Positions 9,374-26,346 of a DNA stretch of 29,840 nt are shown here, piece after piece. Numbering within the stretch: the first letter of the stretch is position 1; each line of letters begins with the position of its first letter. Made by a program: the position numbers and the translations under genes. This DNA is from a virus, in the IMG/VR virus record IMGVR_UViG_3300017755_000056, one strand, 5' to 3'. The notes beneath the pieces were generated by a model that was not told where the DNA came from, searched no databases, and worked only from the letters and a program-made list of their open reading frames with translations.

Positions 9374-9404
9374 CTTTGTTTTTTAACAAAGAATAGTTTT
9401 TTTT
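9374..9404 (+). terminator. Weak AT-rich hairpin plus T8 (possible terminator between the early and packaging operons).
   Basis: ctttgtt-tttt-aacaaag perfect 7-bp stem (9374..9391), then aatag and T8 (9397..9404). The AT-only stem makes it weak. Confidence 0.35.
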
Positions 9405-9415
9405 ATTGTATATAT
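9403..9415 (+). promoter_or_regulatory. TTATTGTATATAT element (candidate late promoter), 21 nt upstream of the terS-like ATG.
   Basis: The exact 13-mer is also present at 20999..21011 and 23270..23282. It lies in the 129-nt gap before the packaging genes. Confidence 0.45.
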
Positions 9416-9436
9416 GAATAATCAAGTTTTATCAAG

Positions 9437-9667
9437 ATGAAACACGGTGGCAAAAGAAAAGGGGCGGGGCGTAAATCTAAAGCCGACGAAATAAACCTAA
9501 TAGAGAAATTATCGCCATTAGAAGATTCCGCATTCATGGCATTAAAAGACGGTGTTGAAAAAGGCGATTTTAAATACGTACAATTATTTTACAATTACTA
9601 CGCAGGAAAACCAAGGGAAACAAGGGATATTACAATCAACGAGGACATTCCGTTGTTTGTAGATTAG
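9437..9667 (+). CDS. terS: Putative small terminase subunit / DNA-binding protein.
   Basis: N-terminal MKHGGKRKGAGRKSK (the GG.R.GAGRK motif is common in TerS-like proteins). 76 aa, immediately upstream of TerL with a 1-nt gap. Confidence 0.55.
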   Translation: MKHGGKRKGAGRKSKADEINLIEKLSPLEDSAFMALKDGVEKGDFKYVQLFYNYYAGKPRETRDITINEDIPLFVD

Positions 9668-9668
9668 T

Positions 9669-10835
9669 ATGCACGTAAAAAAAACAAAAGCACTTACTAC
9701 ATTACGGCAATTAAAGAACCGAACACGTATAGTACGTGGCGGCACATCAGCGGGTAAGACTATTTGTATTCTTACAATATTAATAGATTATGCAATTATA
9801 AATGAAGGTAAGGAAGTAAGCGTAGTATCCGAAAGCATACCACACTTGCGTAGAGGTGCTTTAAAAGACTTCTTAGGTATCTTAAAGGGTTTGCATAGGT
9901 ATAAGGATAGTCAATTCAATAAAAGCACCTTAAAGTACACCTTTACAAACGGAAGTTATATTGAGTTCTTTAGTACAGACCAACCTGATAAACTAAGAGG
10001 TGCTAGGCGGACCGATATATTTATTAATGAGTGTAACAATATACCCTTTGATTCTTATCAACAATTAGCAATAAGAACATCGGGAAATATATGGTTAGAC
10101 TATAATCCTACTAATTTGTTTTGGGTAGATAAAGAACTAATAGGACAACCCGACACGGATTTTGTTACACTTACTTATAAAGACAACGATAGCTTACCAC
10201 AAAGCATAGTAAAGGAATTACTAAAAGCAAGGGACAAAGGAAAGACATCTACCTATTGGAGGAATTGGTGCCGTGTTTACCTTGATGGGGAAATTGGAAG
10301 TTTAGAGGGGGTGTGTATACCCGATTGGAAAGAAATAGATACAATACCACAAGATGCAAGAATATTATCTTATGGCATGGACTTCGGATATGTTGACCCT
10401 CATGTAATTATTTCACTTTACAAATGGAATGATGCTTATATATTCGATGAAGTGTTTTATAAATCGAATGTAGTGTTAAGGGATGTGAGTTTATTTTTAA
10501 AACAAAACAACATAAAAGAAAATATAATTGCCGATAGTGCTGAACCCAAATCAATAGAAAAATTAAGACGTGATGGACATAATATATACCCATGTGCAAA
10601 AGGTCGTGATAGTGTAAACTTTGGAATCAACCTAATAAATCAAAACGAAATATACATTACGAGTAAAAGCCGAAACCTAAAAAGGGAATTACAAGGATAT
10701 GTGTGGGCAAAGGATAAGGATGGTAACACATTACCAAAACCAAGTGGTGAACATCCCGATTGTATAGATGCTTGTCGATATGTATTAACCGATACACTAG
10801 ATAATCAACATAGGGGCGAATATCATATTTATTAA
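9669..10835 (+). CDS. terL: Terminase large subunit (Terminase_3/PBSX XtmB-like).
   Basis: Walker A VRGGTSAGKT, Walker B-like DIFINECNNI. C-terminal RNaseH-like nuclease acidic residues in MDFGYVDPHV, IIADSAEPKSI and HPDCIDACRYV. Confidence 0.85.
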   Translation: MHVKKTKALTTLRQLKNRTRIVRGGTSAGKTICILTILIDYAIINEGKEVSVVSESIPHLRRGALKDFLGILKGLHRYKDSQFNKSTLKYTFTNGSYIEFFSTDQPDKLRGARRTDIFINECNNIPFDSYQQLAIRTSGNIWLDYNPTNLFWVDKELIGQPDTDFVTLTYKDNDSLPQSIVKELLKARDKGKTSTYWRNWCRVYLDGEIGSLEGVCIPDWKEIDTIPQDARILSYGMDFGYVDPHVIISLYKWNDAYIFDEVFYKSNVVLRDVSLFLKQNNIKENIIADSAEPKSIEKLRRDGHNIYPCAKGRDSVNFGINLINQNEIYITSKSRNLKRELQGYVWAKDKDGNTLPKPSGEHPDCIDACRYVLTDTLDNQHRGEYHIY

Positions 10836-10909
10836 AAATATTTTGTTTATTATTTGTTAATTAAAAAAAAAGTTGTATATTTACATCATAAACATTAAAA
10901 CAATAAAAA

Positions 10910-11047
10910 ATGAAAGAATACAATTTGCTTTACACAAAGTTTCAAAATGGAACAATAACAAAGGCACAACAAAAAAGATTATTTGATTTAGCTTTTGGTG
11001 TAGAATTTATGGAAAATAAAAATCCAAATAAAAAATGGAGAGAATAA
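10910..11047 (+). CDS. Hypothetical 45-aa protein in a terminator-bounded mini-cassette.
   Basis: Hand-read: MKEYNLLYTKFQNGTITKAQQKRLFDLAFGVEFMENKNPNKKWRE. It is followed 8 nt later by a strong terminator. Confidence 0.4.
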   Translation: MKEYNLLYTKFQNGTITKAQQKRLFDLAFGVEFMENKNPNKKWRE

Positions 11048-11055
11048 AAACAAGA

Positions 11056-11077
11056 GGGGTAGCAATACCCCTTTTTT
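11056..11077 (+). terminator. Rho-independent terminator.
   Basis: ggggta-gcaa-tacccc perfect 6-bp stem with a GNRA-type loop, then T6. Confidence 0.8.
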
Positions 11078-11094
11078 AATTTAAAACACAAAAC

Positions 11095-11250
11095 ATGAAA
11101 AAAGACTTTATAATTATTTGGAAAGATATATCCGCAAAGGATAATCGCAAAACAATACTAAAAGTTGCAAAAGACTTTAGTTTATTTCTAATGTGTATAT
11201 ACATAGGTATTTTTGCATTTATTAAGGTATTATTTTGGATATGGTATTAA
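11095..11250 (+). CDS. Small membrane protein, 51 aa.
   Basis: Hand-read: MKKDFIIIWKDISAKDNRKTILKVAKDFSLFLMCIYIGIFAFIKVLFWIWY, with a C-terminal TM segment. It overlaps the next ORF. Confidence 0.45.
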   Translation: MKKDFIIIWKDISAKDNRKTILKVAKDFSLFLMCIYIGIFAFIKVLFWIWY

Positions 11251-11486
11251 ATAAAGAATTTGTAGAACATTATATTAGAAGAAAGTGGTGTTGGGATAAT
11301 AACATATTTATATACCCGCACGTTTTAGAACGCAAAGCTAAATCTAATATTAAAATAGAAATAGACATTGACGGAAACAAGCAGTTAGGCGAAGAAGTAT
11401 ATAAACAAAATAAATCGGGGCAATTAAAATATTCAAAAAAAGTACATGAATTATATGATTATTTGTATATTGCATTAAAGAAATAA
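11241..11486 (+). CDS. Hypothetical protein, 81 aa.
   Basis: Track ORF. ATG 11241 is preferred to the TTG at 11235. No motif recognised. A terminator follows. Confidence 0.55.
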   Translation: MVLNKEFVEHYIRRKWCWDNNIFIYPHVLERKAKSNIKIEIDIDGNKQLGEEVYKQNKSGQLKYSKKVHELYDYLYIALKK

Positions 11487-11511
11487 TTTTTCGTTTGATT
11501 GTTTGGTTAAG

Positions 11512-11537
11512 GGGTAGCAGAGATGTTACCCTTTTTT
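11512..11537 (+). terminator. Rho-independent terminator.
   Basis: gggtagc-agagat-gttaccc stem (7 bp including one G-U), then T6. Confidence 0.7.
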
Positions 11538-11559
11538 GTTATACATAATCTAATAAATT

Positions 11560-11572
11560 TTATTGTATTAAT
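11560..11572 (+). promoter_or_regulatory. TTATTGTATTAAT element abutting ATG 11573 (TATTG-N7-ATG).
   Basis: Read directly. TATTG lies at -12..-8 relative to the ATG, the same spacing as at 18717, 23271 and 26143. A TTTG sits 19 nt upstream of the 8-mer TTTTATTG. Confidence 0.45.
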
Positions 11573-12235
11573 ATGAAAGTAAACATTTACGTACCCGAAA
11601 GCTTATCGGATATTACATTAGAACAATATCAAAAGTTTGCAAAGTTAAACACGGAGGAAAACAGCAACAGTAATTTCCTTTTGCATAAGATGGTAGAGAT
11701 ATTTTGCAACCTTGATTTAAAGGATATTGCAAGAATCAAATTTACGGACGTACAAGCCATTATAAATGACCTTAACGGGATGTTTAATCAAAAGACACCC
11801 CTTATACCCATCTTTAAATTAAAGGGCATAGAATACGGCTTTATACCAAAGCTTGACGATATTAGTTTAGGCGAATATATAGACCTTGATAATACGTTGT
11901 CCGATTGGGAAACAATGCATAAGGCGATGAGTGTTCTTTATAGACCGATTACAATACAAAAGAACCATAGGTATCAAATAGAAGATTACACCAACCAAGA
12001 CAAAGCCGACACGTTTAAAGATATGCCTTTAGATGTTGTCATGGGTAGTCTTGTTTTTTTTTGGAATTTAAGCAACGAATTACTACAAACTACCCTGAAT
12101 TATTTGAGCAAAGAGATGGGGGAGAACCTGACTACGGAGCAACGGCTAATTTTGGAACAAAGTGGGGTTGGTATCAGTCAATTTACGGAATCGCTAAAGG
12201 GGATATTACCAAGTTCGATGAGGTTACCAACTTAA
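11573..12235 (+). CDS. Tail-assembly-chaperone-like protein, zero-frame (G-like) product, 220 aa.
   Basis: Track ORF. Two similar halves (ITLEQYQKFAKL... / ISLGEYIDLDN...HKAMSVLYRPI). It contains a T9 run where the overlapping -1 ORF opens. The chaperone call rests mainly on this G/GT-like architecture. Confidence 0.6.
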   Translation: MKVNIYVPESLSDITLEQYQKFAKLNTEENSNSNFLLHKMVEIFCNLDLKDIARIKFTDVQAIINDLNGMFNQKTPLIPIFKLKGIEYGFIPKLDDISLGEYIDLDNTLSDWETMHKAMSVLYRPITIQKNHRYQIEDYTNQDKADTFKDMPLDVVMGSLVFFWNLSNELLQTTLNYLSKEMGENLTTEQRLILEQSGVGISQFTESLKGILPSSMRLPT

Positions 12236-12315
12236 ACATACATAAGTCTTTGATGTTTTTAGCATTTGAAAAAGAAAAGTTAGAACTAGAAAAAAAACTA
12301 ATTAAAAGGAAATGA
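11573..12315 (+). CDS. Predicted -1 frameshift fusion (GT-like) product, about 247 aa. Frame 0 to 12061, then the -1 frame 12061..12315.
   Basis: The -1 frame has a TAG at 12046..12048 and opens at 12049. The slippery T TTT TTT lies at 12055..12061 in frame 0 (GTT TTT TTT TGG). The -1 ORF (..LEFKQRITTNYPELFEQRDGGEPDYGATANFGTKWGWYQSIYGIAKGDITKFDEV..) ends with an ATGA overlap onto the next gene. Confidence 0.5.
12054..12062 (+). other. T9 homopolymer, candidate -1 programmed ribosomal frameshift slippery site.
   Basis: Read directly: cttg ttttttttt ggaa. The X XXY YYZ heptamer is satisfied in the zero frame. Confidence 0.55.
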
Positions 12316-12770
12316 AAGGGTTTTATAACGTAACGGATAAATTAAAAACAAAACTACAAGAAGAACCTTTTGTTAATACGGTTTCTTTCGGTTCAATAGA
12401 CGATGTTGATTTAGATAAACAAAGCATATTCCCGCTCGCTCATGTGATAGTAAACAACGCTATTGTAGGAACTAAAACAACAACATTTAATATATCTATT
12501 CTTGCAATGGACATAGTTGATATATCTAACGATAAGGTCACCGATGTGTTTGTAGGAAACGACAACGAACAAGACGTATTAAATACACAATTAGCTTTAC
12601 TTACAAGGGTAATAAACGATTTACAAAGGGGAGACTTATATACGGAAATGTATCAAGTGCAATCCGACGTAAGTTGTGAGCCGTTTGTGGATAGGTTCGA
12701 AAACAAACTAGCGGGTTGGACTGCGTCCTTTGATGTAGTAATACAAAACGATATGACAATTTGCGACTAA
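12312..12770 (+). CDS. Virion protein, possible head-tail connector/neck component, 152 aa.
   Basis: Track ORF. ATGA-coupled to the frameshift ORF and TAATG-coupled to the gp10-like gene. The assignment is by position only. Confidence 0.35.
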   Translation: MKGFYNVTDKLKTKLQEEPFVNTVSFGSIDDVDLDKQSIFPLAHVIVNNAIVGTKTTTFNISILAMDIVDISNDKVTDVFVGNDNEQDVLNTQLALLTRVINDLQRGDLYTEMYQVQSDVSCEPFVDRFENKLAGWTASFDVVIQNDMTICD

Positions 12771-13282
12771 TGACATTTGAACAAACAAAACAAGCTTTAG
12801 AAATATTTGCTAAATCCGTTATTAAGCAATCAAAGGGTAACTTACGTAGACACCGAAACAATAAGTTTATTACGGGTTCGTCTAGTGGGGACTTAGAGGG
12901 AAGCTTAGGATATGATTTAAACGTAAGTCCAAATAGTTTTAGCTTAGAATTTTATATGGCAGATTACGGTATTTATCAAGACGAAGGTGTTAAGGGGGCG
13001 GAAAGCACTTACGATAAAAGTCGCAATAGTAGATTCCAATATAAAAAGATGCCACTTAATACACAAGCTAAAGGGTCGATACAAAAGTGGATAAAAGAAA
13101 AAGGATTAAAAGGAAATATAAATAGTCTTACTTATGTGATTGCAAGAAGTATATATAGAAAAGGATTAAGAGCTAGTTTCTTTTTTACTAAACCGTTTGA
13201 AGATAATTACTTAAAAATGCCTGATGAACTTATAGAAAAGTTTGCATTAGATATTGATAACTTTTTAGATTATACAACGTGA
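12770..13282 (+). CDS. HK97 gp10-like tail-completion/head-tail joining protein.
   Basis: ALEIFAKSVIKQSKGNLRR...TGSSSGDLEGSLGYDL...EFYMADYGIYQDEGV resembles the HK97 gp10 family pattern (..a....TG.L..Si......v.v.....Ya.y.E.G). ATG 12770 (TAATG overlap) is preferred to the TTG at 12761. Confidence 0.5.
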   Translation: MTFEQTKQALEIFAKSVIKQSKGNLRRHRNNKFITGSSSGDLEGSLGYDLNVSPNSFSLEFYMADYGIYQDEGVKGAESTYDKSRNSRFQYKKMPLNTQAKGSIQKWIKEKGLKGNINSLTYVIARSIYRKGLRASFFFTKPFEDNYLKMPDELIEKFALDIDNFLDYTT

Positions 13283-13827: not shown

Positions 13828-13829
13828 TT

Positions 13830-13880
13830 ATGAGAATATACGCAAGAAGCCCGTTTTTTTTACAATTTAATAGCACTTAA
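13830..13880 (+). other. Orphan 16-codon mini-ORF MRIYARSPFFLQFNST, duplicating the N-terminus of ORF 13279.
   Basis: Hand-read in the 55-nt gap before ATG 13883. It shares ARSPFF and the 11-mer gcaagaagccc with 13279..13305. Confidence 0.35.
13842..13861 (+). repeat. GCAAGAAGCCC + T-run, copy 2.
   Basis: gcaagaagccc g tttttttt, read directly. Partner at 13288..13305. Confidence 0.8.
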
Positions 13881-13882
13881 TT

Positions 13883-17165: not shown

Positions 17166-18697
17166 TATTAGAGTTAAAGGCGGAAACGGGTGCAACCAAA
17201 AAGGATTTAAAAGAAGTAGCAAACGGTTTAGAAAAAGTACAAGACGCTGCGGAAGAAACATCTGAAGAAACAAAAAAGTTAAGCAATGACTTTTCGGAAA
17301 TGGGTGGACAACTTGACACCGTTACGGGCGGTGCTATAACTAAATTTAAAGGTTTACTAGGCGGTGTTAAAAATGTAACAAAAGGATTTAGAACATTAAA
17401 AGGTGCAATTTTATCAACGGGGATTGGTGCTTTAGTTATCGCTATTGGTTCTTTAACGGCAGCATTTACGTCAAGTGAAGCGGGTCAAGATAGGTTCCAA
17501 AAGATACTAAGTCAACTTGGTGTCATAGCGGGTAACGTTGGCGATATATTTACAAGTTTAGGGAATGTTATTTTAGAAACGTTAAGCGGTAACTTTGATG
17601 CCGCGGGCGATGCCTTTGACCTTTTAAAAGAAAGGGTTGTAAACTTTGGACAAGAAACGAGAAGGGAGTTTGCACTTGCGGGCGATTTAGCGGACAAAAC
17701 ATCGAAAGCTAATAAACTAGAAAGGACATTAATAGTTGACCGCATGAAGGCTAACATTAAAATTAATCAATTAAAAACAAAAGCTGCCGAAGTTGATAAA
17801 TTCACTAATGCCGAAAGAATAAAGTTCTTACAAGAAGCGGCGGCGGAAGAAGATAAGATAACGGGTCGTGAAGTTAATCTTGCAAAGTTAAGACGGGATA
17901 TTAAGATTGAACAAAACACGTTAAGCGAATCAACTAGGGAAGACTTAGAACAAGAAGCACAGCTTACCGCAAATGTTTTACAACTTGAAGAACAAAGAAT
18001 ATTAAAAAACAAAGAATTACTTGGAGTTGCTGCAGGATTGCGAAAAATGGAAGCGGATGCAAAAGTAGCGGAAAGAGCAGCGGAATTAGCAGCGATACAA
18101 AAGCAAAGCGATGACACAAACCTAATACAGGCCAAGGGGATTGAAGAACAAAAAATACAAGTTGCCGATTTAAGTCTATTAAAAAAGAAAGCAGCTAAAG
18201 AAGATGTAGAGGTTGATAAGCTTACGACAGGTCAAAAGCTAGATTTAGCATCTAATGCTATGGGGAATTTAGCAAGTATGTTAGGCGAAGAAAGTAAAGC
18301 GGGTAAGGCAGCAGCGATAGCACAAACAACAATAGAAACATATAAAGGTGCTACTTCAGCATTTGCTTCTTTAGCAGGTATTCCAATAGTTGGTCCCGTT
18401 CTTGGTGCTATTGCTGCGGCGGCTGCGGTTTCAGCAGGTATTGCTAATGTTAAAAGAATAACGAGTACAGGACCAGCGGTTTCGGGAGGTAGCAGTAGTG
18501 CGGGGAGTAGAGGCGCGTCCGTACCGTCAACACCAACACCACCAGCATTTAACGTTGTAGGTGCTGCCCCCGAAAGTCAACTTGCACAAACGATTGGGGA
18601 AAAAGAAGATAAACCCGTTAAAGCTTTTGTAGTAAGTAACGATGTAACAACCGCACAAAGTTTAGATAGAAACATTATTGAAAGTGCGTCAATATAA
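17147..18697 (+). CDS. Tape-measure-like protein, 516 aa.
   Basis: Long alpha-helical/coiled-coil, Ala/Lys/Glu-rich sequence, with hydrophobic Gly/Ala segments (LSTGIGALVIAIGSLTAAF; LAGIPIVGPVLGAIAAAAAVSAGIANV). It is the only ORF with tape-measure character. Confidence 0.55.
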   Translation: MARKEVVLELKAETGATKKDLKEVANGLEKVQDAAEETSEETKKLSNDFSEMGGQLDTVTGGAITKFKGLLGGVKNVTKGFRTLKGAILSTGIGALVIAIGSLTAAFTSSEAGQDRFQKILSQLGVIAGNVGDIFTSLGNVILETLSGNFDAAGDAFDLLKERVVNFGQETRREFALAGDLADKTSKANKLERTLIVDRMKANIKINQLKTKAAEVDKFTNAERIKFLQEAAAEEDKITGREVNLAKLRRDIKIEQNTLSESTREDLEQEAQLTANVLQLEEQRILKNKELLGVAAGLRKMEADAKVAERAAELAAIQKQSDDTNLIQAKGIEEQKIQVADLSLLKKKAAKEDVEVDKLTTGQKLDLASNAMGNLASMLGEESKAGKAAAIAQTTIETYKGATSAFASLAGIPIVGPVLGAIAAAAAVSAGIANVKRITSTGPAVSGGSSSAGSRGASVPSTPTPPAFNVVGAAPESQLAQTIGEKEDKPVKAFVVSNDVTTAQSLDRNIIESASI

Positions 18698-18716
18698 AAC
18701 AAAAAGTAAAAATTAA

Positions 18717-18728
18717 TATTGTTATAAT
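18717..18728 (+). promoter_or_regulatory. TATTGTTATAAT element abutting ATG 18729 (TATTG-N7-ATG).
   Basis: Read directly. Same spacing as at 11561, 23271 and 26143. Confidence 0.4.
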
Positions 18729-19766
18729 ATGAATATAGTAGAACTTGTTATAGACGAAGATGAGGACATTTCGGGAATCGAAGCAATTAGCGTTGTTGAA
18801 AACCCCGCCATCGAAGAAGATTTTATTGCATTAAAAAACCAAGAGTTTAAACTTGCAGAAGTAGATAAGGAAAAGCGTATCCTAATGGGTGCTGCTTTAG
18901 TTCCTAACAAACCTATTTATAGACGGAGTGGCGAATCGGAATATTATATATACTTTTCCCGAGATACTGTACGTAAAGCAAGTGAATTGTTTTTTATAAA
19001 TGGTAATCAAAATAACTCCACATTAGAACACAACATACCACTAACGGGAATGTCGGCGGTTGAAAGTTGGATAGTAGAAAGTGAACAAGATAAAAGTCGT
19101 ATGTACGATTTAAATGTGCCTATGGGTACTTGGATGGTTTCAATGAAAGTATTAAACGACGATATTTGGAAAAAAGTCAAAGACGGCGAACTAAAAGGCT
19201 TTTCTATTGAAGGCTATTTTGCGGATAAGTTGGAAAGACCACAAGACAAGTCTATAAAAGACGACCTTGCAAAAATAGAAGAAGAAGAAGCGGAATACTT
19301 ATTAAAAGAAGTGCGTGCTATTATAAAAAAAGACAAAAGGGCTAAAGGCGATAAAAGGATTGAAATGGAATCGTATTCCGATTATCCCGATGCGGTTTCT
19401 AATAACGCAAAAAAAGGAATAGAACTAAACAAAAAAGTAAACAATAAATGTGCAACACAAGTTGGCAAAGTACGGGCATCACAATTGGCACAAGGCAAAC
19501 CAATAAGTGTTGAAACTATAAAAAGGATGTTTAGTTACTTATCAAGGGCTGGCGAATACTACGACGAGGGTAATAACGAAGCTTGCGGAACTATATCTTA
19601 CTTATTATGGGGTGGTAAAGCTGGGCTTAGATGGTCGGGTGCAAAACTTAAAGAACTTGACTTGTTAGAAGCTAGTCTTAAAAAACCATGTACTGCTGGT
19701 TATGAAATGATAGGTTTTAAAATGAAAAACGGTAGAAGAGTACCTAATTGCGTGCCAATTAAATGA
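18729..19766 (+). CDS. XkdF-like prohead serine protease domain fused to a conserved C-terminal domain.
   Basis: The N-terminal half (ISVVENPAIEEDFIALK...ILMGAALVPNKPIY...FSRDTVRKASELF...LEHN...ESWIVE...GTWMVSMKVLNDDIWKKVKDGELKGFSIEG) matches the XkdF/Peptidase_S78_2 pattern. C-terminal half: KRMFSYLSRAGEYY...LLWGGKAGLRWSGAKL, ending CTAGYEMIGFKMKNGRRVPNCVP. Confidence 0.6.
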   Translation: MNIVELVIDEDEDISGIEAISVVENPAIEEDFIALKNQEFKLAEVDKEKRILMGAALVPNKPIYRRSGESEYYIYFSRDTVRKASELFFINGNQNNSTLEHNIPLTGMSAVESWIVESEQDKSRMYDLNVPMGTWMVSMKVLNDDIWKKVKDGELKGFSIEGYFADKLERPQDKSIKDDLAKIEEEEAEYLLKEVRAIIKKDKRAKGDKRIEMESYSDYPDAVSNNAKKGIELNKKVNNKCATQVGKVRASQLAQGKPISVETIKRMFSYLSRAGEYYDEGNNEACGTISYLLWGGKAGLRWSGAKLKELDLLEASLKKPCTAGYEMIGFKMKNGRRVPNCVPIK

Positions 19767-20974: not shown

Positions 20975-20998
20975 AAATATAACAAACGATATTAATAA

Positions 20999-21011
20999 TT
21001 ATTGTATATAT
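20999..21011 (+). promoter_or_regulatory. TTATTGTATATAT element, 13 nt upstream of ATG 21025.
   Basis: Exact 13-mer shared with 9403..9415 and 23270..23282. Confidence 0.45.
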
Positions 21012-21024
21012 ATAAATTAAATTT

Positions 21025-21612: not shown

Positions 21613-21619
21613 ATAAAAA

Positions 21620-22573
21620 ATGGCTACTACAACAAGTATTACAAGCACATACGCTGGCGAATTTGCGGGGGAATACATTTCCGCAGCTTTACTTAGCGGT
21701 GCAACTATTGACAACGGTGGGATAACTGTAAAACCTAACGTTAAATTTAAAGAAGTAATTAAAAAGATTGCAACGGACGGAATCGTGAAGGATGCCACCT
21801 GTGATTTCTCGGCTACTTCTACAATTACACTTACTGAAAAAATATTACAACCTGAATTACAGCAAGTTAACTTACAACTTTGTAAAAAAGACTTTGTATC
21901 GGATTGGGAAGCGATTCAAATGGGAATGTCGGCACACCATGACCTACCATCAAGCTTTAGCGATTTCCTTATAGGGCACGTTGCTGCAAAGGTTGCACAA
22001 AAAACCGAGCAAAGCATTTGGGATGGTAATACAAGTAACAATGGACAGTTTGACGGTTTATCAAAACTAGTATCTTTGGACGCTTCTTTACCATCGGCAC
22101 AAGAAGTTGCGGGTACTACGGTAGATTCATCAAATGTTATTGCACAGCTTGGTTCCATTGTTGATGCGATTCCATCAGCACTTTACGGTAGTGAAGATTT
22201 ATTTATCTACGTTTCGCAAAACATTGCAAGAGCTTATGTGAGAGCATTAGGAGGATTTGGGGCAAGTGGTTTAGGTGCTGCGGGTACAAACGCACAAGGT
22301 ACACAATGGTGGAATAACGGAAGCTTATCATTTGATGGCGTAAAGATATTTGTCGCTAATGGTCTTGCTGACAATAAAGCAATAGCCGCTGAAAAATCAA
22401 ACTTATTCTTTGGAACGGGCCTACTAGCGGACCACAACGAAGTTAAAGTTTTGGATATGTCAGACCTTGACGGCTCGGACAACGTAAGAGTTGTGATGAG
22501 ATTTAGTGCTGGGGTACAATATGGGATTATCGAGGATATAACTACCTACGGTATCACAAACTCCGCTAACTAA
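21620..22573 (+). CDS. Major capsid protein (HK97-fold candidate), 317 aa.
   Basis: Position after the protease and scaffold-like genes, typical size, and a strong terminator immediately downstream. The N-terminus ATTTSITSTYAGEFAGEYISAALLSGATID resembles capsid proteins I recall from Bacteroidota phages. Confidence 0.65.
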   Translation: MATTTSITSTYAGEFAGEYISAALLSGATIDNGGITVKPNVKFKEVIKKIATDGIVKDATCDFSATSTITLTEKILQPELQQVNLQLCKKDFVSDWEAIQMGMSAHHDLPSSFSDFLIGHVAAKVAQKTEQSIWDGNTSNNGQFDGLSKLVSLDASLPSAQEVAGTTVDSSNVIAQLGSIVDAIPSALYGSEDLFIYVSQNIARAYVRALGGFGASGLGAAGTNAQGTQWWNNGSLSFDGVKIFVANGLADNKAIAAEKSNLFFGTGLLADHNEVKVLDMSDLDGSDNVRVVMRFSAGVQYGIIEDITTYGITNSAN

Positions 22574-22595
22574 GAATTAATTAAATAACATAAAG

Positions 22596-22629
22596 GGGTG
22601 GGTGGTTTATTATCTACCTGCCCTTTTTT
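22596..22629 (+). terminator. Rho-independent terminator after the capsid gene.
   Basis: gggtgggtgg-tttattat-ctacctgccc 10-bp stem (three G-U pairs), then T6. Confidence 0.7.
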
Positions 22630-22642
22630 AATATAAAAAAAG

Positions 22643-23191
22643 ATGGCGTGTAACTTAACAGCGGGTAGAAAAGAACCATGTAAGGACGTAGTTGGAGGAA
22701 TTAGAAAAGTCTATTTTACTGACTTCGGCGGTTACGGAACGGTAACACAAACTAACGACGAGATTACTGACATGAGTGGTACTTTTACTGCCTTTGAATA
22801 TGAACTAAAAGGGACAAGTAGCTTTGAGCAAACTATCACTTCATCAAGGGAAAATGGAACAACTTTCTTTGAACAAACTTTAAATATTACACTTAAAAAA
22901 CTAACTAAAGAAGATAACAAAGAATTGAAACTTCTAGCTTATGGAAGACCACACGTTGCGGTTGAAGATTACAACGGTAATGTCTTTGTTATGGGATTAG
23001 AACATGGAGCGGACGTGAGTGGCGGTACTATTGTGACAGGGTCAGGGCTTGCAGAACTTTCGGGTTATACCTTAACGCTAACATCGCAGGAGGTGATGCC
23101 CGCAAATTTTGTATCAGCACCAACCGCTGCCAATCCATTTGGTGGTATGTCAAGTGCAACGGTAACAGTAACTGAAGGAACTAATTCGTAA
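22643..23191 (+). CDS. Major tail (tube) protein, 182 aa.
   Basis: GGIRKVYFTDF...FTAFEYELKGTSSFEQTITSSRENGTTFFEQTLNITLKKL...LLAYGRPHVAVEDYNGNVFVMGLEHGADVSGG...LSGYTLTLTSQE follows the pattern of siphovirus tail-tube proteins. It is bracketed by terminators. Confidence 0.65.
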   Translation: MACNLTAGRKEPCKDVVGGIRKVYFTDFGGYGTVTQTNDEITDMSGTFTAFEYELKGTSSFEQTITSSRENGTTFFEQTLNITLKKLTKEDNKELKLLAYGRPHVAVEDYNGNVFVMGLEHGADVSGGTIVTGSGLAELSGYTLTLTSQEVMPANFVSAPTAANPFGGMSSATVTVTEGTNS

Positions 23192-23215
23192 TTAGTAATG
23201 TTGATTGATTGGGAA

Positions 23216-23240
23216 GGGTGGCATTTGCTGCCCTTTTTTT
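23216..23240 (+). terminator. Rho-independent terminator after the tail-tube gene.
   Basis: gggtggc-attt-gctgccc stem (including G-U pairs), then T7. Confidence 0.75.
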
Positions 23241-23269
23241 GCTTTATAAATAACAAAATTTAAGTTTTC

Positions 23270-23282
23270 TTATTGTATATAT
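23270..23282 (+). promoter_or_regulatory. TTATTGTATATAT element abutting ATG 23283 (TATTG-N7-ATG).
   Basis: Exact 13-mer shared with 9403 and 20999. It lies 30 nt after the terminator T-run. Confidence 0.45.
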
Positions 23283-23624
23283 ATGACAATATTACAAGAA
23301 AGTGCGTCGGCACAAAACTTAGATTTTATCCCAAGAAGTTTTACAAGCGGAAACACGTATAATGTTACAATAGTAAACGAACAAACTAATACGGAAATCT
23401 ATAATCAAGACGTTACATCTATTAGCGAAAACTTATATTACAATAGACTAAATGCTATCTTTGGCGTAAAGCAAGATAACTTTTACATGGTTACGGTTAA
23501 ATCGGGTACTAATGTAGTATTTAAGGACAAGATATTTTGCACAAATCAAACTATTGCCGATTACACGATTAACAATAGTCAATATACGGAACAAAGTTCT
23601 ACAAATGAATTTATATTTATATAA
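23283..23624 (+). CDS. Hypothetical virion-module protein, 113 aa.
   Basis: Track ORF. TAATG-coupled to the portal gene. Confidence 0.55.
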   Translation: MTILQESASAQNLDFIPRSFTSGNTYNVTIVNEQTNTEIYNQDVTSISENLYYNRLNAIFGVKQDNFYMVTVKSGTNVVFKDKIFCTNQTIADYTINNSQYTEQSSTNEFIFI

Positions 23625-25549
23625 TGGATAACTTACATATAGTTAACTTATCGTCTTATAACAGACCTAAAATTAAAGAAGATAAAAAGCGTGATTGGGT
23701 AAACTACGGGGACGACAACAATTTTTATAGTTACTTAATAGACCTTTACATTGAATCGACAACTAACAACGCAATTATTAATGGTGTAAGTCAAATGATT
23801 TATGGTAAGGGACTAGATGCTTTAGATAGTTCAACAAAAACAAACGAATACGCAGCACTTAGAGGTATATTTAACGATTCTTGTCTTAGAAAAATAAGTT
23901 TTGATTTAAAATTACTAGGCGAAGCAAGTTTTCAAGTGCTTTACAAAGATGGTAGGGTTGCCAAAGCCGAACACTTCCCACGTCAAACATTAAGGGCGGA
24001 AAAAACAAACGAAGATGGTAAAATAGAAGCTTACTATTATTTTCATGATTGGTCAAAAATAAAACCAAAAGATAAACCATTACGTATCGCAGCGTTTGGA
24101 TGTGGTAACGGTAGCGAACCCGAAATTAAAATAGTAAAAAGGTATTTATCGGGTTACGACTATTATTGTCCACCCGACTACATGGGGGGTATTGCTTATG
24201 CGGAATTAGAAAGCGAAGTGGCGGATTACTTAATTAACGATGTACAAAACGGATTTAGCGGAACTAAAGTAGTAAACTTCAATAACGGAGTGCCTGACCG
24301 AGAGAAACAACTACAAATTAAATCTGATGTAATGCGTAAGCTCACGGGTTCAAGGGGCGAAAAAGTAATTATAGCTTTTAATAATAACGCTGAAAGCAAA
24401 ACAACGGTTGATGATATACCGCTGACCGATGCCCCACAACATTACGAATACTTATCAAATGAATGTATTGGTAAGTTAATGGTAGCACATAGGATTACAT
24501 CGCCCTTACTATTAGGCATTAGGGATAGCAATAATGGACTTGGTAATAACGCGGACGAAATAAAAACCGCTTCCTTACTATTTCACAACACAACTATAAG
24601 ACCATACCAAGATTTAATCATTGACGCAATGGATGATATTTTAGCGGTAAATGGGATTGCATTAAAGCTTTATTTTAAGACCCTACAACCGCTTGAATTT
24701 ATCGAAACGAACAATGCTATAACTAACGAAGCGAGGGAGGAAGAAACGGGCGTTAAAATGGCTTCACAAGTAATAAATAACGAAACCGCAATAATAGACG
24801 ATAGGCTAGCTTATTCAACACAAGAAAAAGCAGAAGAAATGGCTAAAGATTTAGGTTGTAAAGGTTATCACACCCATGACTTAGATGGCAATACTTGGTA
24901 TATGCCTTGTGAAGAACATAAGTTATCTAAACAAGCACCCGAATTTGACGATAACAAGATGTTTGATTTATTAGATGAATTTGGCGAAGATGAAAATTTA
25001 GACGAATGGGAACTTGTTGACGAACGTCAAGTGGATTATGAACAAGAAGACGCTTTAGATAAAATGATAGGTTTGGCAAGTACGGGAAGTGCAAAACCAA
25101 AAGCGGGTAGTGAACAAGATGGCGAAAATAAAGATGGCGTACAATTTAAAGTAAGATACCAATACGCTCCTTTAAAAACACAATCGAATAGTAGGGAGTT
25201 TTGTAAAAAAATGGTAAGTGCTAAAAAGATTTACCGTAAAGAAGATATTTTATCTATGGGCAATAGAGCGGTTAATGCGGGTTGGGGATTAAATGGTGCC
25301 GACACTTACAATATTTGGTTAAGTAAAAATTTTCATAAACTTTACAAAGGCGGGGGTGCTTGTCATCACTTTTGGATGCGTAAGACGTATAAAGCAAAAG
25401 CCGAGAAAATTAACCCCGATGTTGGAAACCCTAATGCTGAAGTAAGTGTAAACCAGGCGAAAAAAGACGGTTTTAAACCCGAAACAAACGACAAAAAAGT
25501 GGCTATGCGACCAAAGGATATGCCAAATCAAGGATTCGTAAACAAATAA
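23624..25549 (+). CDS. Portal protein fused to a C-terminal minor-head (MuF/SPP1 gp7-like) Cys-motif region.
   Basis: 641 aa. N-terminal RDWVNYGDDNNFYSYLIDLYIESTTNNAIINGVSQMIYGKGL resembles portal N-termini. An acidic linker follows. C-terminal SREFCKKMVSAKKIYRKEDI...YKGGGACHHFW resembles the Cys motif of MuF-like minor head proteins that usually follow portals as a separate gene. Confidence 0.6.
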   Translation: MDNLHIVNLSSYNRPKIKEDKKRDWVNYGDDNNFYSYLIDLYIESTTNNAIINGVSQMIYGKGLDALDSSTKTNEYAALRGIFNDSCLRKISFDLKLLGEASFQVLYKDGRVAKAEHFPRQTLRAEKTNEDGKIEAYYYFHDWSKIKPKDKPLRIAAFGCGNGSEPEIKIVKRYLSGYDYYCPPDYMGGIAYAELESEVADYLINDVQNGFSGTKVVNFNNGVPDREKQLQIKSDVMRKLTGSRGEKVIIAFNNNAESKTTVDDIPLTDAPQHYEYLSNECIGKLMVAHRITSPLLLGIRDSNNGLGNNADEIKTASLLFHNTTIRPYQDLIIDAMDDILAVNGIALKLYFKTLQPLEFIETNNAITNEAREEETGVKMASQVINNETAIIDDRLAYSTQEKAEEMAKDLGCKGYHTHDLDGNTWYMPCEEHKLSKQAPEFDDNKMFDLLDEFGEDENLDEWELVDERQVDYEQEDALDKMIGLASTGSAKPKAGSEQDGENKDGVQFKVRYQYAPLKTQSNSREFCKKMVSAKKIYRKEDILSMGNRAVNAGWGLNGADTYNIWLSKNFHKLYKGGGACHHFWMRKTYKAKAEKINPDVGNPNAEVSVNQAKKDGFKPETNDKKVAMRPKDMPNQGFVNK

Positions 25550-25552
25550 CAA

Positions 25553-26056
25553 ATGGCTGAAGGATTATTTATTACACGAAAAGATTTAGTTAAGTTTACT
25601 TCCGTAAATGGAAACGTAGATAGTGACAAGTTTTTACAATACATAAAGATTGCTCAAGATATACACGTAAGGAACTATTTAGGTTCAGACTTGTTTAACA
25701 AGATACAAGACGATATAGAAGCAAGTACCTTGACGGGGGATTACCTTACACTTGTTACGGATTACGTAAAACCTATGATTATACATTGGGCAATGGTTGA
25801 ATATTTACCTTTTGCAGCTTATACGATAGCAAACAAAGGTGTGTTTAAACATGGTAGCGAAAATGCCTCTAATGTAGAAAAAGAAGAAGTTGATTTTTTA
25901 ATAGAAAAGGAACGGGATATTGCACAATATTATACGGATAGATTTATAGATTATATGTCTTTTAACGCTAGTAGTAAGTACCCCGAATATTATAGTAATT
26001 CGAACGACGATGTGTACCCTGACAAAAACGCAAATTTCGAAGGATGGGTTTTGTAA
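25553..26056 (+). CDS. Head-tail connector/adaptor (gp6-like, Phage_connect_1-type) protein.
   Basis: ITRKDLVKFTSVNGNVDSDKFLQYIKIAQDIHVRNYLGSDLFNKIQ...YLTLVTDYVKPMIIHWAMVEYLPF fits the head-tail adaptor pattern (d.l..yi..A...i...lG..Ly..l......L....i.p.l...a). It lies directly after the portal. Confidence 0.55.
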   Translation: MAEGLFITRKDLVKFTSVNGNVDSDKFLQYIKIAQDIHVRNYLGSDLFNKIQDDIEASTLTGDYLTLVTDYVKPMIIHWAMVEYLPFAAYTIANKGVFKHGSENASNVEKEEVDFLIEKERDIAQYYTDRFIDYMSFNASSKYPEYYSNSNDDVYPDKNANFEGWVL

Positions 26057-26142
26057 GAAACGACTATAAACCAAAAAAAGTAAACATAGAAAGGTTAAAA
26101 CAATATTTGCAAAAAGCATATATAACAAAAACCAAAAAAAAG

Positions 26143-26154
26143 TATTGATATAAT
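26143..26154 (+). promoter_or_regulatory. TATTGATATAAT element abutting ATG 26155 (TATTG-N7-ATG).
   Basis: Read directly. Same spacing as the three other abutting sites. Confidence 0.4.
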
Positions 26155-26346
26155 ATGGCAAATACAATAAATTGGGGAAAAATATATTGTTCGTCTTATT
26201 GGGGGGACACCGCTAATACAACAGATGCAATTCCCGTGTTTTCCGCACCGCTTTGTTGGACGGAAGATATACTAGAGTTGTCATGTGATAGCACAAGCTT
26301 TAGTGTTGATAGCACTTCAATAACGGTTGACCAAACAAGAATTTAA
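26155..26346 (+). CDS. Hypothetical small protein, 63 aa.
   Basis: Track ORF. INWGKIYCSSYWG motif and an internal DSTSFSVDSTSITVD repeat. Confidence 0.5.
   Translation: MANTINWGKIYCSSYWGDTANTTDAIPVFSAPLCWTEDILELSCDSTSFSVDSTSITVDQTRI

What the first reader, a model, noticed from the sequence alone, without database searches (positions are those of the whole stretch)
9403..26157. Conserved TATTG-N7-ATG / TTATTGTATATAT element restricted to the heads of late (packaging and structural) operons: candidate phage-specific promoter producing leaderless mRNAs
Read directly:
- The exact 13-mer TTATTGTATATAT occurs three times: 9403..9415 before the terS-like gene, 20999..21011 before the scaffold-like and capsid genes, and 23270..23282 before ORF 23283 and the portal.
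- Four starts share an identical geometry, TATTG + 7 A/T nt + ATG: TATTGTATTAATATG (11561..11575), TATTGTTATAATATG (18717..18731), TATTGTATATATATG (23271..23285) and TATTGATATAATATG (26143..26157).
- A looser copy, GTTGTATATTT, lies at about 10872 before the mini-cassette ORF 10910.

All sites lie in the few real intergenic gaps of the late half, several just after terminators. I saw no clear copy in the early region 1432..9300.

The G of TATTG sits 7 nt before the A of the ATG. This is about where the Bacteroidota -7 box (TAnnTTTG) places its G relative to the transcription start. If this is a -7-like box, four operons would be transcribed as leaderless mRNAs starting at or next to the ATG, and two (9437, 21025) would have leaders of about 13-22 nt. 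I could not find a consistent -33 TTTG partner. A properly spaced one (19 nt) occurs only at 11535..11538.
Basis: partly seen in the sequence, partly recalled or inferred. Interest (0 to 1): 0.65.

Follow-up and report, generated by a model that had tools for sequence, protein, structure and literature searches.

The report
Phage sigma-factor late promoters abutting start codons
Six copies of a conserved two-box DNA signal in this marine flavobacterial phage are most likely late promoters read by the phage's own small (ECF-type) sigma factor. Four of them sit so close to the start codon that the late messages should have no leader, which is a familiar phage strategy in an uncultured but very widespread phage group.

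Summary

**The element.** The full signal is bipartite: (T/A)AACAAA, 13 nt, tTATTGTA, then A/T-rich sequence, T, and a purine 12 nt after the T of TATTG. It occurs six times in the window, all on the gene strand:
- before terS/terL
- before the tail block
- before the protease
- before scaffold/capsid
- before the portal block
- before the fibre/lysis block

None lies in the early region.

**Conservation.** In 160 related IMG/VR loci the two boxes and their 14-nt spacing are conserved while the spacer sequence is not. Hits are almost all on the gene strand: 236 versus 2 around the portal gene, and 105 versus 9 around the terminase gene. The start codon sits 12-13 nt after TATTG in 143 of 241 unique sites.

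**The likely reader.** ORF 4745-5290 is an ECF-type sigma factor by family profiles and by fold. It is present in 10 of 10 relatives examined.

**A cultured analogue.** Nonlabens phage P12024S has a homologous sigma and AACAA-N15-CGTTA-N7-ATG sites. That is a canonical ECF AAC/CGT promoter in the same geometry.

- The element is not a Bacteroidota -7 box.
- The "looser copy" at 10872 is a separate, host-type TTTG-N19-TATATTTA promoter.

**Limits.** No transcript 5' ends could be examined, so the leaderless status is inferred.

**Verdict.** This is a new member of a known kind.

The parts
4745..5290 (+). Phage-encoded ECF-type (group 4) sigma factor, 181 aa. It is the proposed reader of the late promoters.
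   Evidence: NCBIfam TIGR02985, TIGR02937 and NF058625 each match 20 of 20 homologues end to end, though below the curated cut-offs. The AF2 model (pLDDT 76) has its top PDB matches all among ECF sigmas: Mtb SigL, Mtb SigH, SigW and RpoE. A homologue is present in 10 of 10 relatives. It is homologous to P12024S gp33 (hhalign probability 94.5%).
9383..9416 (+). Late promoter P1 before terS-like and terL. The -35 box TAACAAA is at 9384-9390 and the -10 box TATTGT at 9404-9409. The predicted start is G 9416, giving a 21-nt leader to ATG 9437.
   Evidence: Matrix score 17.4. Conserved in TerL loci as TTAACAAA-N13-TATTGTA, always with a leader (ATG 30-44 nt after TATTG).
11540..11575 (+). Late promoter P2 before the tail-gene block. 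The -35 variant ATACATA is at 11541-11547 and TATTGT at 11561-11566. ATG 11573 is at the predicted start (leaderless).
   Evidence: Matrix score 15.9. Relatives keep TATACAAA/TATACATA-N13-TATTGT with the ATG mostly at 12. Terminator 11509-11534 lies directly upstream.
18696..18731 (+). Late promoter P3 before the prohead protease. AAACAAA is at 18697-18703 and TATTGT at 18717-18722. ATG 18729 is at the predicted start.
   Evidence: Matrix score 22.1. Orthologous sites in relatives are listed (MDIVELFIDE genes).
20979..21012 (+). Late promoter P4 before scaffold-like and major capsid genes. TAACAAA is at 20980-20986 and TATTGT at 21000-21005. The predicted start is A 21012, giving a 13-nt leader to ATG 21025.
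   Evidence: Matrix score 28.4. In most relatives the same gene (MKATDML...) has its ATG at 13 and would be leaderless. A minority have it at 25, as here.
23250..23285 (+). Late promoter P5 before ORF 23283 and the portal. TAACAAA is at 23251-23257 and TATTGT at 23271-23276. ATG 23283 is at the predicted start.
   Evidence: Matrix score 28.0. Terminator 23211-23238 lies directly upstream. The module is present in effectively all 50 unique orthologous upstream regions chosen without reference to the motif.
26122..26157 (+). Late promoter P6 before ORF 26155, the baseplate/fibre genes and, across the window end, the lysis cassette. TAACAAA is at 26123-26129 and TATTGA at 26143-26148. ATG 26155 is at the predicted start.
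   Evidence: Matrix score 29.9. Orthologous sites (MANTINWGKIYC genes) are.
11509..11540 (+). Intrinsic terminator ending the upstream unit, immediately before P2.
   Evidence: Stem of 11 pairs plus a T-run.
23211..23245 (+). Intrinsic terminator immediately before P5.
   Evidence: Stem of 12 pairs plus a T-run. Conserved as a terminator-promoter module in relatives.
10853..10883 (+). This is not part of the late class. It is a host-type (sigmaA-like) promoter before the small cassette ORF 10910: TTTG at 10853-10856, 19 nt, then TATATTTA at 10876-10883.
   Evidence: It is the only intergenic + strand match to TTG-N18-21-TAhhTTT[GA] in the window. TTGTATATTTA occurs 14 times on the gene strand of the related loci and once on the other strand, and the six copies shown downstream of terL carry an upstream TTTG. 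The matrix score for the late motif is below 8.

Best explanation
The element is a bipartite promoter of the ECF-sigma type: (T/A)AACAAA (-35-like, with the hallmark AAC), a 13-14 nt non-conserved spacer, TATTGT(A) (-10-like, at -12..-7), then A/T-rich sequence ending in T(-1) and a purine at +1.

**Proposed mechanism (inferred).**
1. The early region is transcribed by the host RNA polymerase, and this yields the phage sigma factor (ORF 4745-5290).
2. That sigma binds host core polymerase and directs it to six late promoters. These head the packaging, tail, protease, scaffold/capsid, portal and fibre/lysis units. Two of them re-start transcription just after intrinsic terminators.
3. At four promoters in this genome (and at most orthologous sites in relatives) the A of the start codon sits where transcription should begin. 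The mRNA would then start with AUG and be translated as a leaderless message.
4. P1 (terS) and, in this genome, P4 (scaffold) would give leaders of about 21 and 13 nt.

**What is shown.** The motif, its strand and position specificity, its conservation, its fixed spacings, and the ECF nature and co-occurrence of the sigma gene.

**What is inferred.** That this sigma reads these sites, late timing, and the exact start points.

**My odds.** Promoter about 0.85. Read by the phage sigma about 0.75. Truly leaderless (5' end within 0-2 nt of the AUG) about 0.65.
For: **Non-random occurrence in the window**
- TATTG-W7-ATG occurs 4 times against 0.14 expected.
- AACAA-N14-TATTG occurs 5 times on the + strand against 0.38 expected for both strands.

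**Conservation in 80 portal-centred relatives**
- TATTG-W7-ATG: 117 on the gene strand, 1 on the other.
- The AACAA-TATTG spacing is 14 nt in 181 cases, against 22 or fewer at any other spacing.
- Matrix hits at score 12 or more: 236 versus 2.
- The spacer between the boxes is not conserved.

**Conservation in 80 TerL-centred relatives**
- P1 and P2 are conserved, with 105 versus 9 hits.

**Whole genomes**
- Ten complete or near-complete relatives carry 2-5 exact sites on the gene strand; only two carry a single exact match on the other strand.

**Motif-independent sampling**
- Upstream regions of the pre-portal ORF were chosen without reference to the motif. Effectively all 50 unique regions carry the module.

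**The element is independent of the start codon**
- At P1 the boxes keep their spacing while the ATG lies 30-44 nt downstream.

**Start-site signature**
- In 98 sites without an ATG at 12/13, position 11 is T in 83% and position 12 is a purine in 88%.

**The ATGs are real starts**
- Codons 2-5 vary synonymously or conservatively across relatives.

**Terminators**
- Intrinsic terminators lie directly upstream of P2 and P5.

**The sigma factor**
- ECF family profiles match 20 of 20 homologues.
- The fold matches ECF sigmas.
- It is present in 10 of 10 relatives.

**ECF promoter features from the literature**
- ECF promoters typically have AAC in the -35 region, a group-specific -10 element, and spacers of 14-17 bp (PMC5758882).

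**Cultured analogue**
- Nonlabens phage P12024S has AACAA-N14/15-CGTTA-N6/7-ATG at six sites, plus a seventh CGTTA-N7-ATG site whose AACAA box lies further upstream. All precede packaging or structural gene blocks.
- It has a homologous sigma, gp33.
- The -10 word differs but the geometry to the ATG is the same.
Against: - Logan contig ends near P5 are an assembly break in a T7/T8 run.
- The sigma matches fall below the curated NCBIfam cut-offs (39.4 versus 42.9 bits for TIGR02937).
- The -10 word TATTG is not the usual ECF CGT.
- In phiEco32 the similar word AATGTA is centred at -11.5 (PMC12276001). That register would put the start about 3 nt inside these ORFs. The exact start point is therefore uncertain by a few nucleotides.
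- A at -3 and -6 within the A/T-rich stretch also fits the Bacteroidota translation-initiation preference (PMC6847099). Part of the conservation next to the ATG may therefore serve read-through, leadered transcripts.
- Leaderless mRNAs are a minority in the host phylum: 5.5% in F. psychrophilum (PMC9723704), and 3.7% of 5' UTRs are shorter than 10 nt in B. thetaiotaomicron (PMC7366714).
Confidence: 0.65

Rival explanations
1. The sites are real phage-sigma promoters, but transcription starts a few nucleotides upstream of the ATG, or at variable positions. The late mRNAs would then have very short leaders rather than a 5'-terminal AUG. The tight ATG coupling would reflect compact genome packing or a translation-initiation preference.
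For: - The ATG lies at 14, 17 or 18 nt after TATTG in some relatives and at 25 for the scaffold gene in this window.
- A at -3 and -6 fits Bacteroidota initiation signals (PMC6847099).
- ECF start-site distances vary by 1-2 nt (general knowledge).
Against: - There is a sharp peak at 12-13 nt (94 + 31 of the sites).
- The same -10-to-ATG distance appears in P12024S despite a different -10 word.
- A T(-1)/purine(+1) signature sits at exactly position 11/12 even where no ATG follows.
Confidence: 0.2
2. The two boxes are read by host polymerase with its own primary sigma plus a phage activator bound to the upstream TAACAAA box near -30. This would resemble T4 MotA/AsiA sigma appropriation, or a class II activator. 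The phage sigma-like protein would have another role.
For: - The upstream box is centred near -29, about where the T4 MotA box lies (general knowledge).
- TATTGT satisfies the minimal TAnnnT.
Against: - The host sigmaA box in Flavobacteriia needs T-8 T-7 T-6 G-5 (PMC6847099). TATTGTA does not fit that box.
- A conserved ECF-type sigma gene co-occurs with the motif in 10 of 10 relatives.
- The P12024S version is a textbook ECF AAC/CGT promoter.
Confidence: 0.08
3. The conserved sequence acts at the RNA level. It would be a translational operator or processing site overlapping the start codon, as with T4 RegA-type sites, on transcripts that start elsewhere.
For: - The element overlaps or abuts start codons at most sites.
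- It is A/U-rich and on the coding strand only.
Against: - The fixed 14-nt spacing to an upstream AACAA box across a non-conserved spacer is typical of protein-DNA recognition by a two-domain sigma.
- At P1 the element is 20-30 nt from the ATG.
- Two sites follow strong terminators, so a new promoter is needed there.
- There is no Rfam match and no conserved RNA fold.
Confidence: 0.03
4. The repeats are chance or compositional. They would be AT-rich intergenic sequence plus shared ancestry of a few duplicated gene heads, with no function.
For: - The genome is AT-rich (GC 0.25-0.39).
- The 13-mer with up to 2 mismatches is not enriched: 11 observed versus 7.1 expected.
Against: - Exact and bipartite patterns are far above the shuffle controls.
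- There is extreme strand bias.
- The boxes are conserved while the spacer and flanks are not, across relatives down to 67% portal identity.
Confidence: 0.01

Closest known systems
Canonical ECF (group 4) sigma promoters, e.g. B. subtilis SigW/SigX/SigM (AAC in -35, CGT in -10; PMC5758882)
   Same: - A two-domain sigma (sigma2 + sigma4).
- A bipartite promoter with AAC in the upstream box.
- A fixed short spacer: 14 nt between the hexamers TAACAA and TATTGT, within the reported 14-17 bp range.
- High adherence to the consensus and a small regulon.
   Different: - The -10 word is TATTG(T), not CGT.
- The sigma is phage-encoded.
- No motif copy lies anywhere on the gene strand of the early region that holds the sigma gene, so there is no sign of autoregulation, and no anti-sigma was recognised.
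- The promoters are fused to start codons.
Nonlabens (Persicivirga) phage P12024S/L: gp33 sigma and AACAA-N15-CGTTA-N7-ATG sites (found here)
   Same: - Homologous sigma (hhalign probability 94.5%).
- Same -35 word.
- Same distance from the -10 word to the ATG.
- Same placement before packaging and structural gene blocks.
- Related portal (36.6% identity).
- Flavobacteriaceae host.
   Different: - The -10 word is CGTTA instead of TATTG.
- The box spacing is 15 nt rather than 14.
- The phage is cultured, so it is testable.
- As far as the searched literature shows, its promoters have not been described.
Coliphage phiEco32 gp36 (and Salmonella phage 7-11): phage-encoded sigma for middle/late genes, promoter consensus TAATGTATA / AATGTA centred at -11.5 (PMC4331800, PMC12276001)
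   Same: - A phage-encoded two-domain sigma redirects host core polymerase to a short, highly conserved phage-specific element before structural genes.
- The -10 word is nearly identical: TAATGTATA versus TATTGTATA.
   Different: - There is no detectable homology between the sigmas (hhalign probability 5.6%; no tblastn hit in the phage collection).
- The consensus reported for phiEco32 promoters is a single element near -10, whereas here a conserved -35-like box is present.
- If the mRNAs are leaderless, the register to the start site differs by about 2-3 nt.
- The host phylum differs.
- No gp79-like partner was identified.
Bacteroidota primary-sigma promoter, -33 TTTG / -7 TAnnTTTG (PMC6847099, PMC9723704)
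   Same: - TA at -12/-11 and T at -7 if the ATG is +1.
- Same host phylum.
- The window does contain one such promoter, at 10853-10883.
   Different: - TATTG puts G at -8 where the host box has T.
- The host G-5 and the T-8 T-7 T-6 run are absent.
- The upstream box is AACAAA, not TTTG, and lies closer.
- The host box gives leaders with a median of about 24-32 nt.
Leaderless phage transcripts, e.g. lambda cI from PRM and the middle/late transcripts of Thermus phage P23-45 (from my own knowledge; the P23-45 paper could not be opened)
   Same: The promoter is placed so that transcription starts at the A of the AUG.
   Different: - Those use the host primary sigma (with phage modifiers in P23-45).
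- Here a phage ECF-type sigma is proposed.
- The host phylum lacks Shine-Dalgarno pairing altogether.

Membership tests
ECF (group 4) sigma factor | Two-domain architecture (sigma2 and sigma4 only) with sequence similarity to ECF profiles. | tested here: met
   - TIGR02985, TIGR02937 and NF058625 match 20 of 20 homologues over the whole profile. The E-value is about 1e-10, though the scores fall below the curated cut-offs.
- The model shows two helical domains joined by a disordered linker.
- The top Foldseek PDB hits are all ECF sigmas.
ECF sigma-dependent promoter | [quoted passage not shown] | tested here: met
   (T/A)AACAAA is present at five of six window sites, and ATACATA at P2. Across relatives P2 keeps TATACAAA/TATACATA.
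ECF sigma-dependent promoter | Fixed spacer of about 14-17 bp between the -35 and -10 elements. | tested here: met
   AACAA-N14-TATTG occurs in 181 cases, against 22 or fewer at any other spacing. The range is from PMC5758882.
ECF sigma-dependent promoter | A -10 element with CGT (common in many ECF groups, but group-specific). | tested here: not met
   The -10 word here is TATTG(T). The P12024S analogue does have CGTTA. This feature is typical rather than obligatory (PMC5758882).
ECF sigma-dependent promoter | Transcription from the site depends on the cognate sigma. | not testable with these tools
   This needs in vitro transcription or a reporter assay.
ECF sigma regulon | Autoregulatory promoter upstream of the sigma gene, and/or an adjacent anti-sigma gene. 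| tested here: not met
   No matrix hit scoring 8 or more lies on the + strand in 1-9300. No anti-sigma was recognised among the neighbours. This is expected for a phage cascade in which host polymerase makes the sigma.
Bacteroidota sigmaA promoter (-33 TTTG / -7 TAnnTTTG) | TAnnTTTG at -12..-5 with T-8 T-7 T-6 G-5. | tested here: not met
   The sites read TATTGTAw at -12..-5. The host consensus is from PMC6847099 and PMC9723704.
Leaderless mRNA | Primary 5' end at, or within a few nt of, the A of the start codon. | not testable with these tools
Indirect support: the ATG lies 12-13 nt after the T of TATTG in 143 of 241 unique sites, and a T/purine signature sits at 11/12 in the rest.
phiEco32 gp36-type phage sigma system | Sigma homologous to gp36. 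| tested here: not met
   hhalign probability 5.6%. No tblastn hit in the phage collection.
T4-type late promoter (TATAAATA read by gp55/gp33/clamp) | A single -10 element TATAAATA without an upstream box, and a gp55-like sigma. | tested here: not met
   TATAAATA appears only in a subset of sites. With normal geometry the start would fall inside the ORF. An upstream box is conserved, and the sigma is a two-domain ECF type.

The most novel reading that the evidence does not exclude
Phage-encoded ECF-like sigma factors with start-codon-fused (leaderless) late promoters may be a general expression strategy of tailed phages of Bacteroidota. The host phylum lacks Shine-Dalgarno pairing, so a 5'-terminal AUG may give late genes privileged, host-independent translation. 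In this reading the sigma/-10 pairs diversify between lineages (TATTG here, CGTTA in Nonlabens phage P12024S), while the AAC box and the -10-to-AUG geometry stay fixed. That would yield a natural library of orthogonal sigma/promoter switches for Bacteroidota.
Probability: 0.35. Interest if true: 0.65.

Novelty: new member of a known kind. Interest (0 to 1): 0.45.

Why it matters
- **A testable promoter model for an abundant uncultured group.** It gives a concrete consensus, six mapped sites and a candidate sigma for a very abundant group of marine flavobacterial phages.
- **A cultured system to test it.** The same logic appears in Nonlabens phage P12024S, where it can be tested directly.
- **A handle on leaderless translation.** If the leaderless prediction holds, these phages offer a natural system for studying leaderless translation in a phylum that initiates translation without Shine-Dalgarno pairing.
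- **A possible genetic tool.** The sigma/promoter pair could serve as an orthogonal expression switch for Flavobacteriia, where genetic tools are scarce.
- **Better annotation.** The promoter positions fix start codons and operon boundaries in this phage family.

Tried and rejected
1. **Extended -10 reading (TGnTATAAT at 18717 and 26143) and T4-late TATAAATA reading.** Rejected. With normal geometry the start would be about 7 nt inside the ORFs. The ATGs are genuine starts, because codons 2-5 vary synonymously across relatives.
2. **Bacteroidota -7 box reading.** Rejected on register and sequence (PMC6847099, PMC9723704).
3. **A -33 TTTG partner at 11535-11538.** This is the tail of the terminator T-run. 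It is not conserved as a box.
4. **The site at 10872 as a weak copy.** Rejected. It is a host-type TTTG-N19-TATATTTA promoter.
5. **RNA evidence.** Five Logan contigs start 44 nt before ATG 23283, but the break lies in a polymorphic T7/T8 run. That is an assembly artefact, not a 5' end.
6. **Rfam.** No family matched in the window.
7. **RNA folds of the predicted 5' ends.** Unremarkable.
8. **PDB sequence search with the sigma profile.** It gave only spurious antibody hits. The fold search was needed.
9. **Homology to phiEco32 gp36.** Not detected.
10. **Megablast of the late region and tblastn of the sigma against cultured phages.** No hits. Only the portal reaches the Nonlabens phages.
11. 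**Flavobacterium phage 11b and Croceibacter phage P2559S.** They do not carry this motif.
12. **Literature searches.** No description of these promoters was found.
13. **Whole genome of the window.** No whole genome is held for the window.


Full report
**What the window is.** The window is a nearly complete, roughly 30-kb tailed-phage genome. All genes lie on the + strand, GC is 0.25-0.39, and there are no Shine-Dalgarno sequences before genes.
- PHROGs and Pfam identify TerL (9669-10835), a tape-measure-like protein, a prohead protease (18729-19766), a capsid-like protein (21620-22573), the portal (23624-25549) and a fibre gene (27374-29800). A lysis cassette sits at the window start.
- The early block 1432-9300 holds NinG, Erf, DUF3127, a helicase, a thymidylate-synthase homologue and an exonuclease.
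- The portal is 36.6% identical to that of Nonlabens (Persicivirga) phages P12024S/L, which infect Flavobacteriaceae.
- Hundreds of IMG/VR contigs of 30-34 kb are closer relatives.
- The host is therefore almost certainly a marine member of the Flavobacteriia. This is an inference.

**Checking the observation.** The second pattern is expected 0.14 times by chance. The 13-mer allowing two mismatches is not enriched (11 observed versus 7.1 expected), so the signal lies in the exact core and its geometry.

I aligned sites from 80 portal-centred relatives (67-99% portal identity).
- A second conserved box, (T/A)AACAAA, lies 14 nt upstream of TATTG. The sequence between the boxes is not conserved.
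- The spacing AACAA-N14-TATTG occurs 181 times on the gene strand of these loci, against 22 or fewer for any other spacing from 8 to 22 nt.
- In the window this pattern occurs five times on the + strand. The expectation for both strands is 0.38.
- A 34-nt weight matrix built from the relatives gives 236 hits on the gene strand against 2 on the other at score 12 or more.
- In the window the matrix finds exactly six + strand sites: 9383, 11540, 18696, 20979, 23250 and 26122. None on that strand scores 8 or more in the early region. Shuffled windows give 0.025 hits.
- Ten complete or near-complete relatives carry 2-5 exact-anchor sites on the gene strand; two of them also carry a single exact match on the other strand.
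- I also chose upstream regions without reference to the motif, using the ORF that ends at the portal start. Of 50 unique regions, 36 show TATTG at -12/-13. The other 14 are cases where my crude ORF caller picked an ATG inside the terminator loop. The module is therefore essentially universal at that position.

**Geometry.**
- The distance from the T of TATTG to the start codon of the downstream ORF peaks sharply at 12 nt (94 cases) and 13 nt (31 cases), with a minor class at 25 nt.
- Over 241 unique sites from both locus sets, 143 have the ATG at 12 or 13.
- In the other 98, position 11 is T in 83% and position 12 is a purine in 88%. This is the pyrimidine(-1)/purine(+1) pattern of a transcription start, kept even when no ATG follows.
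- The site before terS (P1) is conserved in TerL-centred relatives with the same box spacing, but its ATG lies 30-44 nt after TATTG. The element is therefore not a translation-initiation signal as such.
- The site before the tail block (P2) keeps a variant upstream box, TATACAAA/TATACATA, in relatives.
- The ATGs that abut the element are genuine starts. Codons 2-5 vary synonymously or conservatively between relatives (MTILQ, MIVLQ, MIILQ).
- This excludes any reading in which transcription begins downstream of the ATG. The tempting extended -10 (TGnTATAAT) and T4-late (TATAAATA) readings of the A/T-rich stretch are excluded for that reason.
- With the A of the ATG as +1, TATTGT occupies -12..-7. 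That is the canonical place of a sigma-70-family -10 hexamer and fits TAnnnT. TAACAA occupies -32..-27, leaving a 14-bp spacer.

**Who reads it.**
- ORF 4745-5290 (181 aa) gives only weak Pfam and PHROG hits.
- All 20 aligned homologues match the NCBIfam ECF models TIGR02985, TIGR02937 and NF058625 end to end. The scores are below the curated cut-offs.
- An AlphaFold model (pLDDT 76) shows two helical domains joined by a disordered linker.
- Its best PDB matches are all ECF sigma factors: M. tuberculosis SigL and SigH in initiation complexes, B. subtilis SigW and E. coli RpoE.
- A homologue (54-97% identity) is present in all ten relatives examined.
- ECF promoters characteristically have AAC in the -35 region, a group-specific -10 word, and spacers of 14-17 bp (PMC5758882). 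The element fits that description except that its -10 word is TATTG rather than CGT.

**Independent support from a cultured phage.**
- Nonlabens phage P12024S encodes gp33, annotated with a Sigma-70 region 2 domain. It is homologous over its full length to the window's sigma family (hhalign probability 94.5%).
- Its genome has AACAA-N14/15-CGTTA-N6/7-ATG at six sites on the gene strand. A seventh CGTTA-N7-ATG site, before gp01, has its AACAA box further upstream.
- These sites lie before gp01, gp05 (pre-portal), gp08, gp35, gp41, gp44 and gp45.
- That is a textbook ECF AAC/CGT promoter, and the ATG sits at the same distance from the -10 word as in the window.
- Two lineages with different -10 words but the same -10-to-ATG distance are hard to explain unless that distance is functionally constrained. 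The simplest constraint is that transcription starts at the A of the AUG.

**Operon picture (inferred).**
- P1 (9383-9416) drives terS and terL.
- A host-type promoter and two terminators bracket small cassette ORFs (10853-11534).
- P2 (11540) drives the tail block up to the tape-measure-like gene.
- P3 (18696) drives the protease and the next gene.
- P4 (20979) drives the scaffold and capsid genes. Terminator 22596-22619 follows the capsid gene.
- After terminator 23211-23238, P5 (23250) drives ORF 23283 and the portal.
- P6 (26122) drives the baseplate and fibre genes and, across the window end, the lysis genes.
- Predicted leaders are 0 nt at P2, P3, P5 and P6, 21 nt at P1 and 13 nt at P4.

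**Why it is not the host -7 box.** In F. johnsoniae and F. psychrophilum the primary-sigma box is T-12 A-11 n n T-8 T-7 T-6 G-5 (PMC6847099, PMC9723704). The phage element has G at -8 and lacks T-6/G-5, and its upstream box is AACAAA, not TTTG.

- TTTG lies at 10853-10856, followed by 19 nt and then TATATTTA at 10876-10883. This predicts a leader of about 22 nt to ORF 10910.
- It is the only intergenic + strand match to that pattern in the window.
- The box TTGTATATTTA occurs 14 times on the gene strand of the related loci and once on the other strand. The six copies shown downstream of terL also carry an upstream TTTG.
- It belongs to a separate, host-read class.

**Limits.**
- No RNA evidence could be obtained.
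- The coincident starts of five Logan contigs 44 nt before ATG 23283 fall in a polymorphic T7/T8 run. They are assembly breaks.
- The exact start point is uncertain by a few nucleotides. In phiEco32 the very similar word AATGTA (consensus TAATGTATA) is centred at -11.5 (PMC12276001, PMC4331800). That register would start transcription inside these ORFs. However, the phiEco32 sigma shows no detectable homology to this one.
- A at -3 and -6 in the A/T-rich stretch also matches the Bacteroidota translation preference (PMC6847099). Some conservation next to the ATG may serve read-through transcripts.
- Leaderless mRNAs are a minority in the host phylum: 5.5% in F. psychrophilum, and 3.7% of 5' UTRs are shorter than 10 nt in B. 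thetaiotaomicron (PMC9723704, PMC7366714).

**Comparison and novelty.**
- Phage-encoded sigma factors with cognate middle or late promoters are well known. Examples are phiEco32 gp36 (PMC12276001, PMC4331800), and SPO1 and T4 gp55 from general knowledge.
- Leaderless phage transcripts are also known.
- I found no published description of these promoters for flavobacterial phages.
- Earlier notes of this scan list at least seven other Bacteroidota-phage windows where other agents reached a similar reading with different -10 words. These are unchecked leads and not independent evidence. They do suggest the arrangement is common in this phage world.
- I therefore file this as a new member of a known kind. 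Its interest is moderate and lies mainly in the leaderless geometry and in the availability of a cultured analogue for testing.

Noticed in passing
window 10853-11075: A self-contained small cassette. It has a host-type promoter (TTTG-N19-TATATTTA, 10853-10883), a 45-aa ORF (10910-11047) and an intrinsic terminator (11052-11075). The promoter box recurs on the gene strand of relatives, in six shown cases downstream of terL. It looks like a moron expressed by host polymerase, independently of the late sigma.
   Followed up: partly
window 9409-9436 and L092-L171 upstream of terS: The predicted 20-30 nt leader of the terS mRNA is itself conserved within subgroups of relatives, for example ...TTGAATAAACAATCTTTTTCAA-ATG or ...ATTAATTAATCTATTTTAATT-ATG. 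In the window it contains an 8-codon mini-ORF whose stop overlaps the terS ATG. It may be a translational control of terS. I did not test this.
   Followed up: no
window 1290-1323, minus strand (inside the holin-like ORF 1015-1431): One minus-strand matrix hit, ATACCAACC...TATTGTAAAAAAA, scores 15.8. A similar hit is seen in L051 and L054 at a comparable place downstream of the portal. It could be an antisense late promoter within the lysis region, or conservation imposed by the coding strand.
   Followed up: partly
L100-L103, about 3410-5425, minus strand (downstream of terL): Four relatives share a strong minus-strand match, TAAACCAAA-N12-TATTGTTTTAATA (score 21.3). No ORF follows it. It may be an antisense or non-coding transcript start in the cassette region.
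   Followed up: no
window 23232-23238: The T-run of the terminator before P5 is polymorphic in public assemblies (T7 here, T8 in several JGI contigs). Five Logan assemblies break exactly there.
   Followed up: yes
window 1668-1675: A perfect host -7 box, TACCTTTG, lies in the intergenic region between the lysis cassette and the first early ORFs. It predicts a start near 1680, 42 nt before ATG 1722. It is a candidate early promoter, but the box alone is not statistically distinctive in this AT-rich genome.
   Followed up: partly
L183 (Flavobacterium phage 11b), e.g. before genes at 11242, 12642, 20433, 21116, 30497: Phage 11b carries repeated (G)TTGTATATTTG boxes 15-30 nt before several gene starts. 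These are host-type TAnnTTTG boxes and not the sigma-specific motif seen here.
   Followed up: no
L184 (Croceibacter phage P2559S), before genes at 1516, 2018, 28271, 30691, 35896, 37410: A repeated module, ...AAAGTTTAATTTAGC-N10-14-AACCGAGAGCA-(0-4 nt)-ATG, precedes several mostly early genes. It looks like a conserved promoter-plus-leader unit of another kind.
   Followed up: no
window 11573-12315: P2 heads an ORF with a T9 run and a -1 frame extension. I did not examine it here.
   Followed up: no
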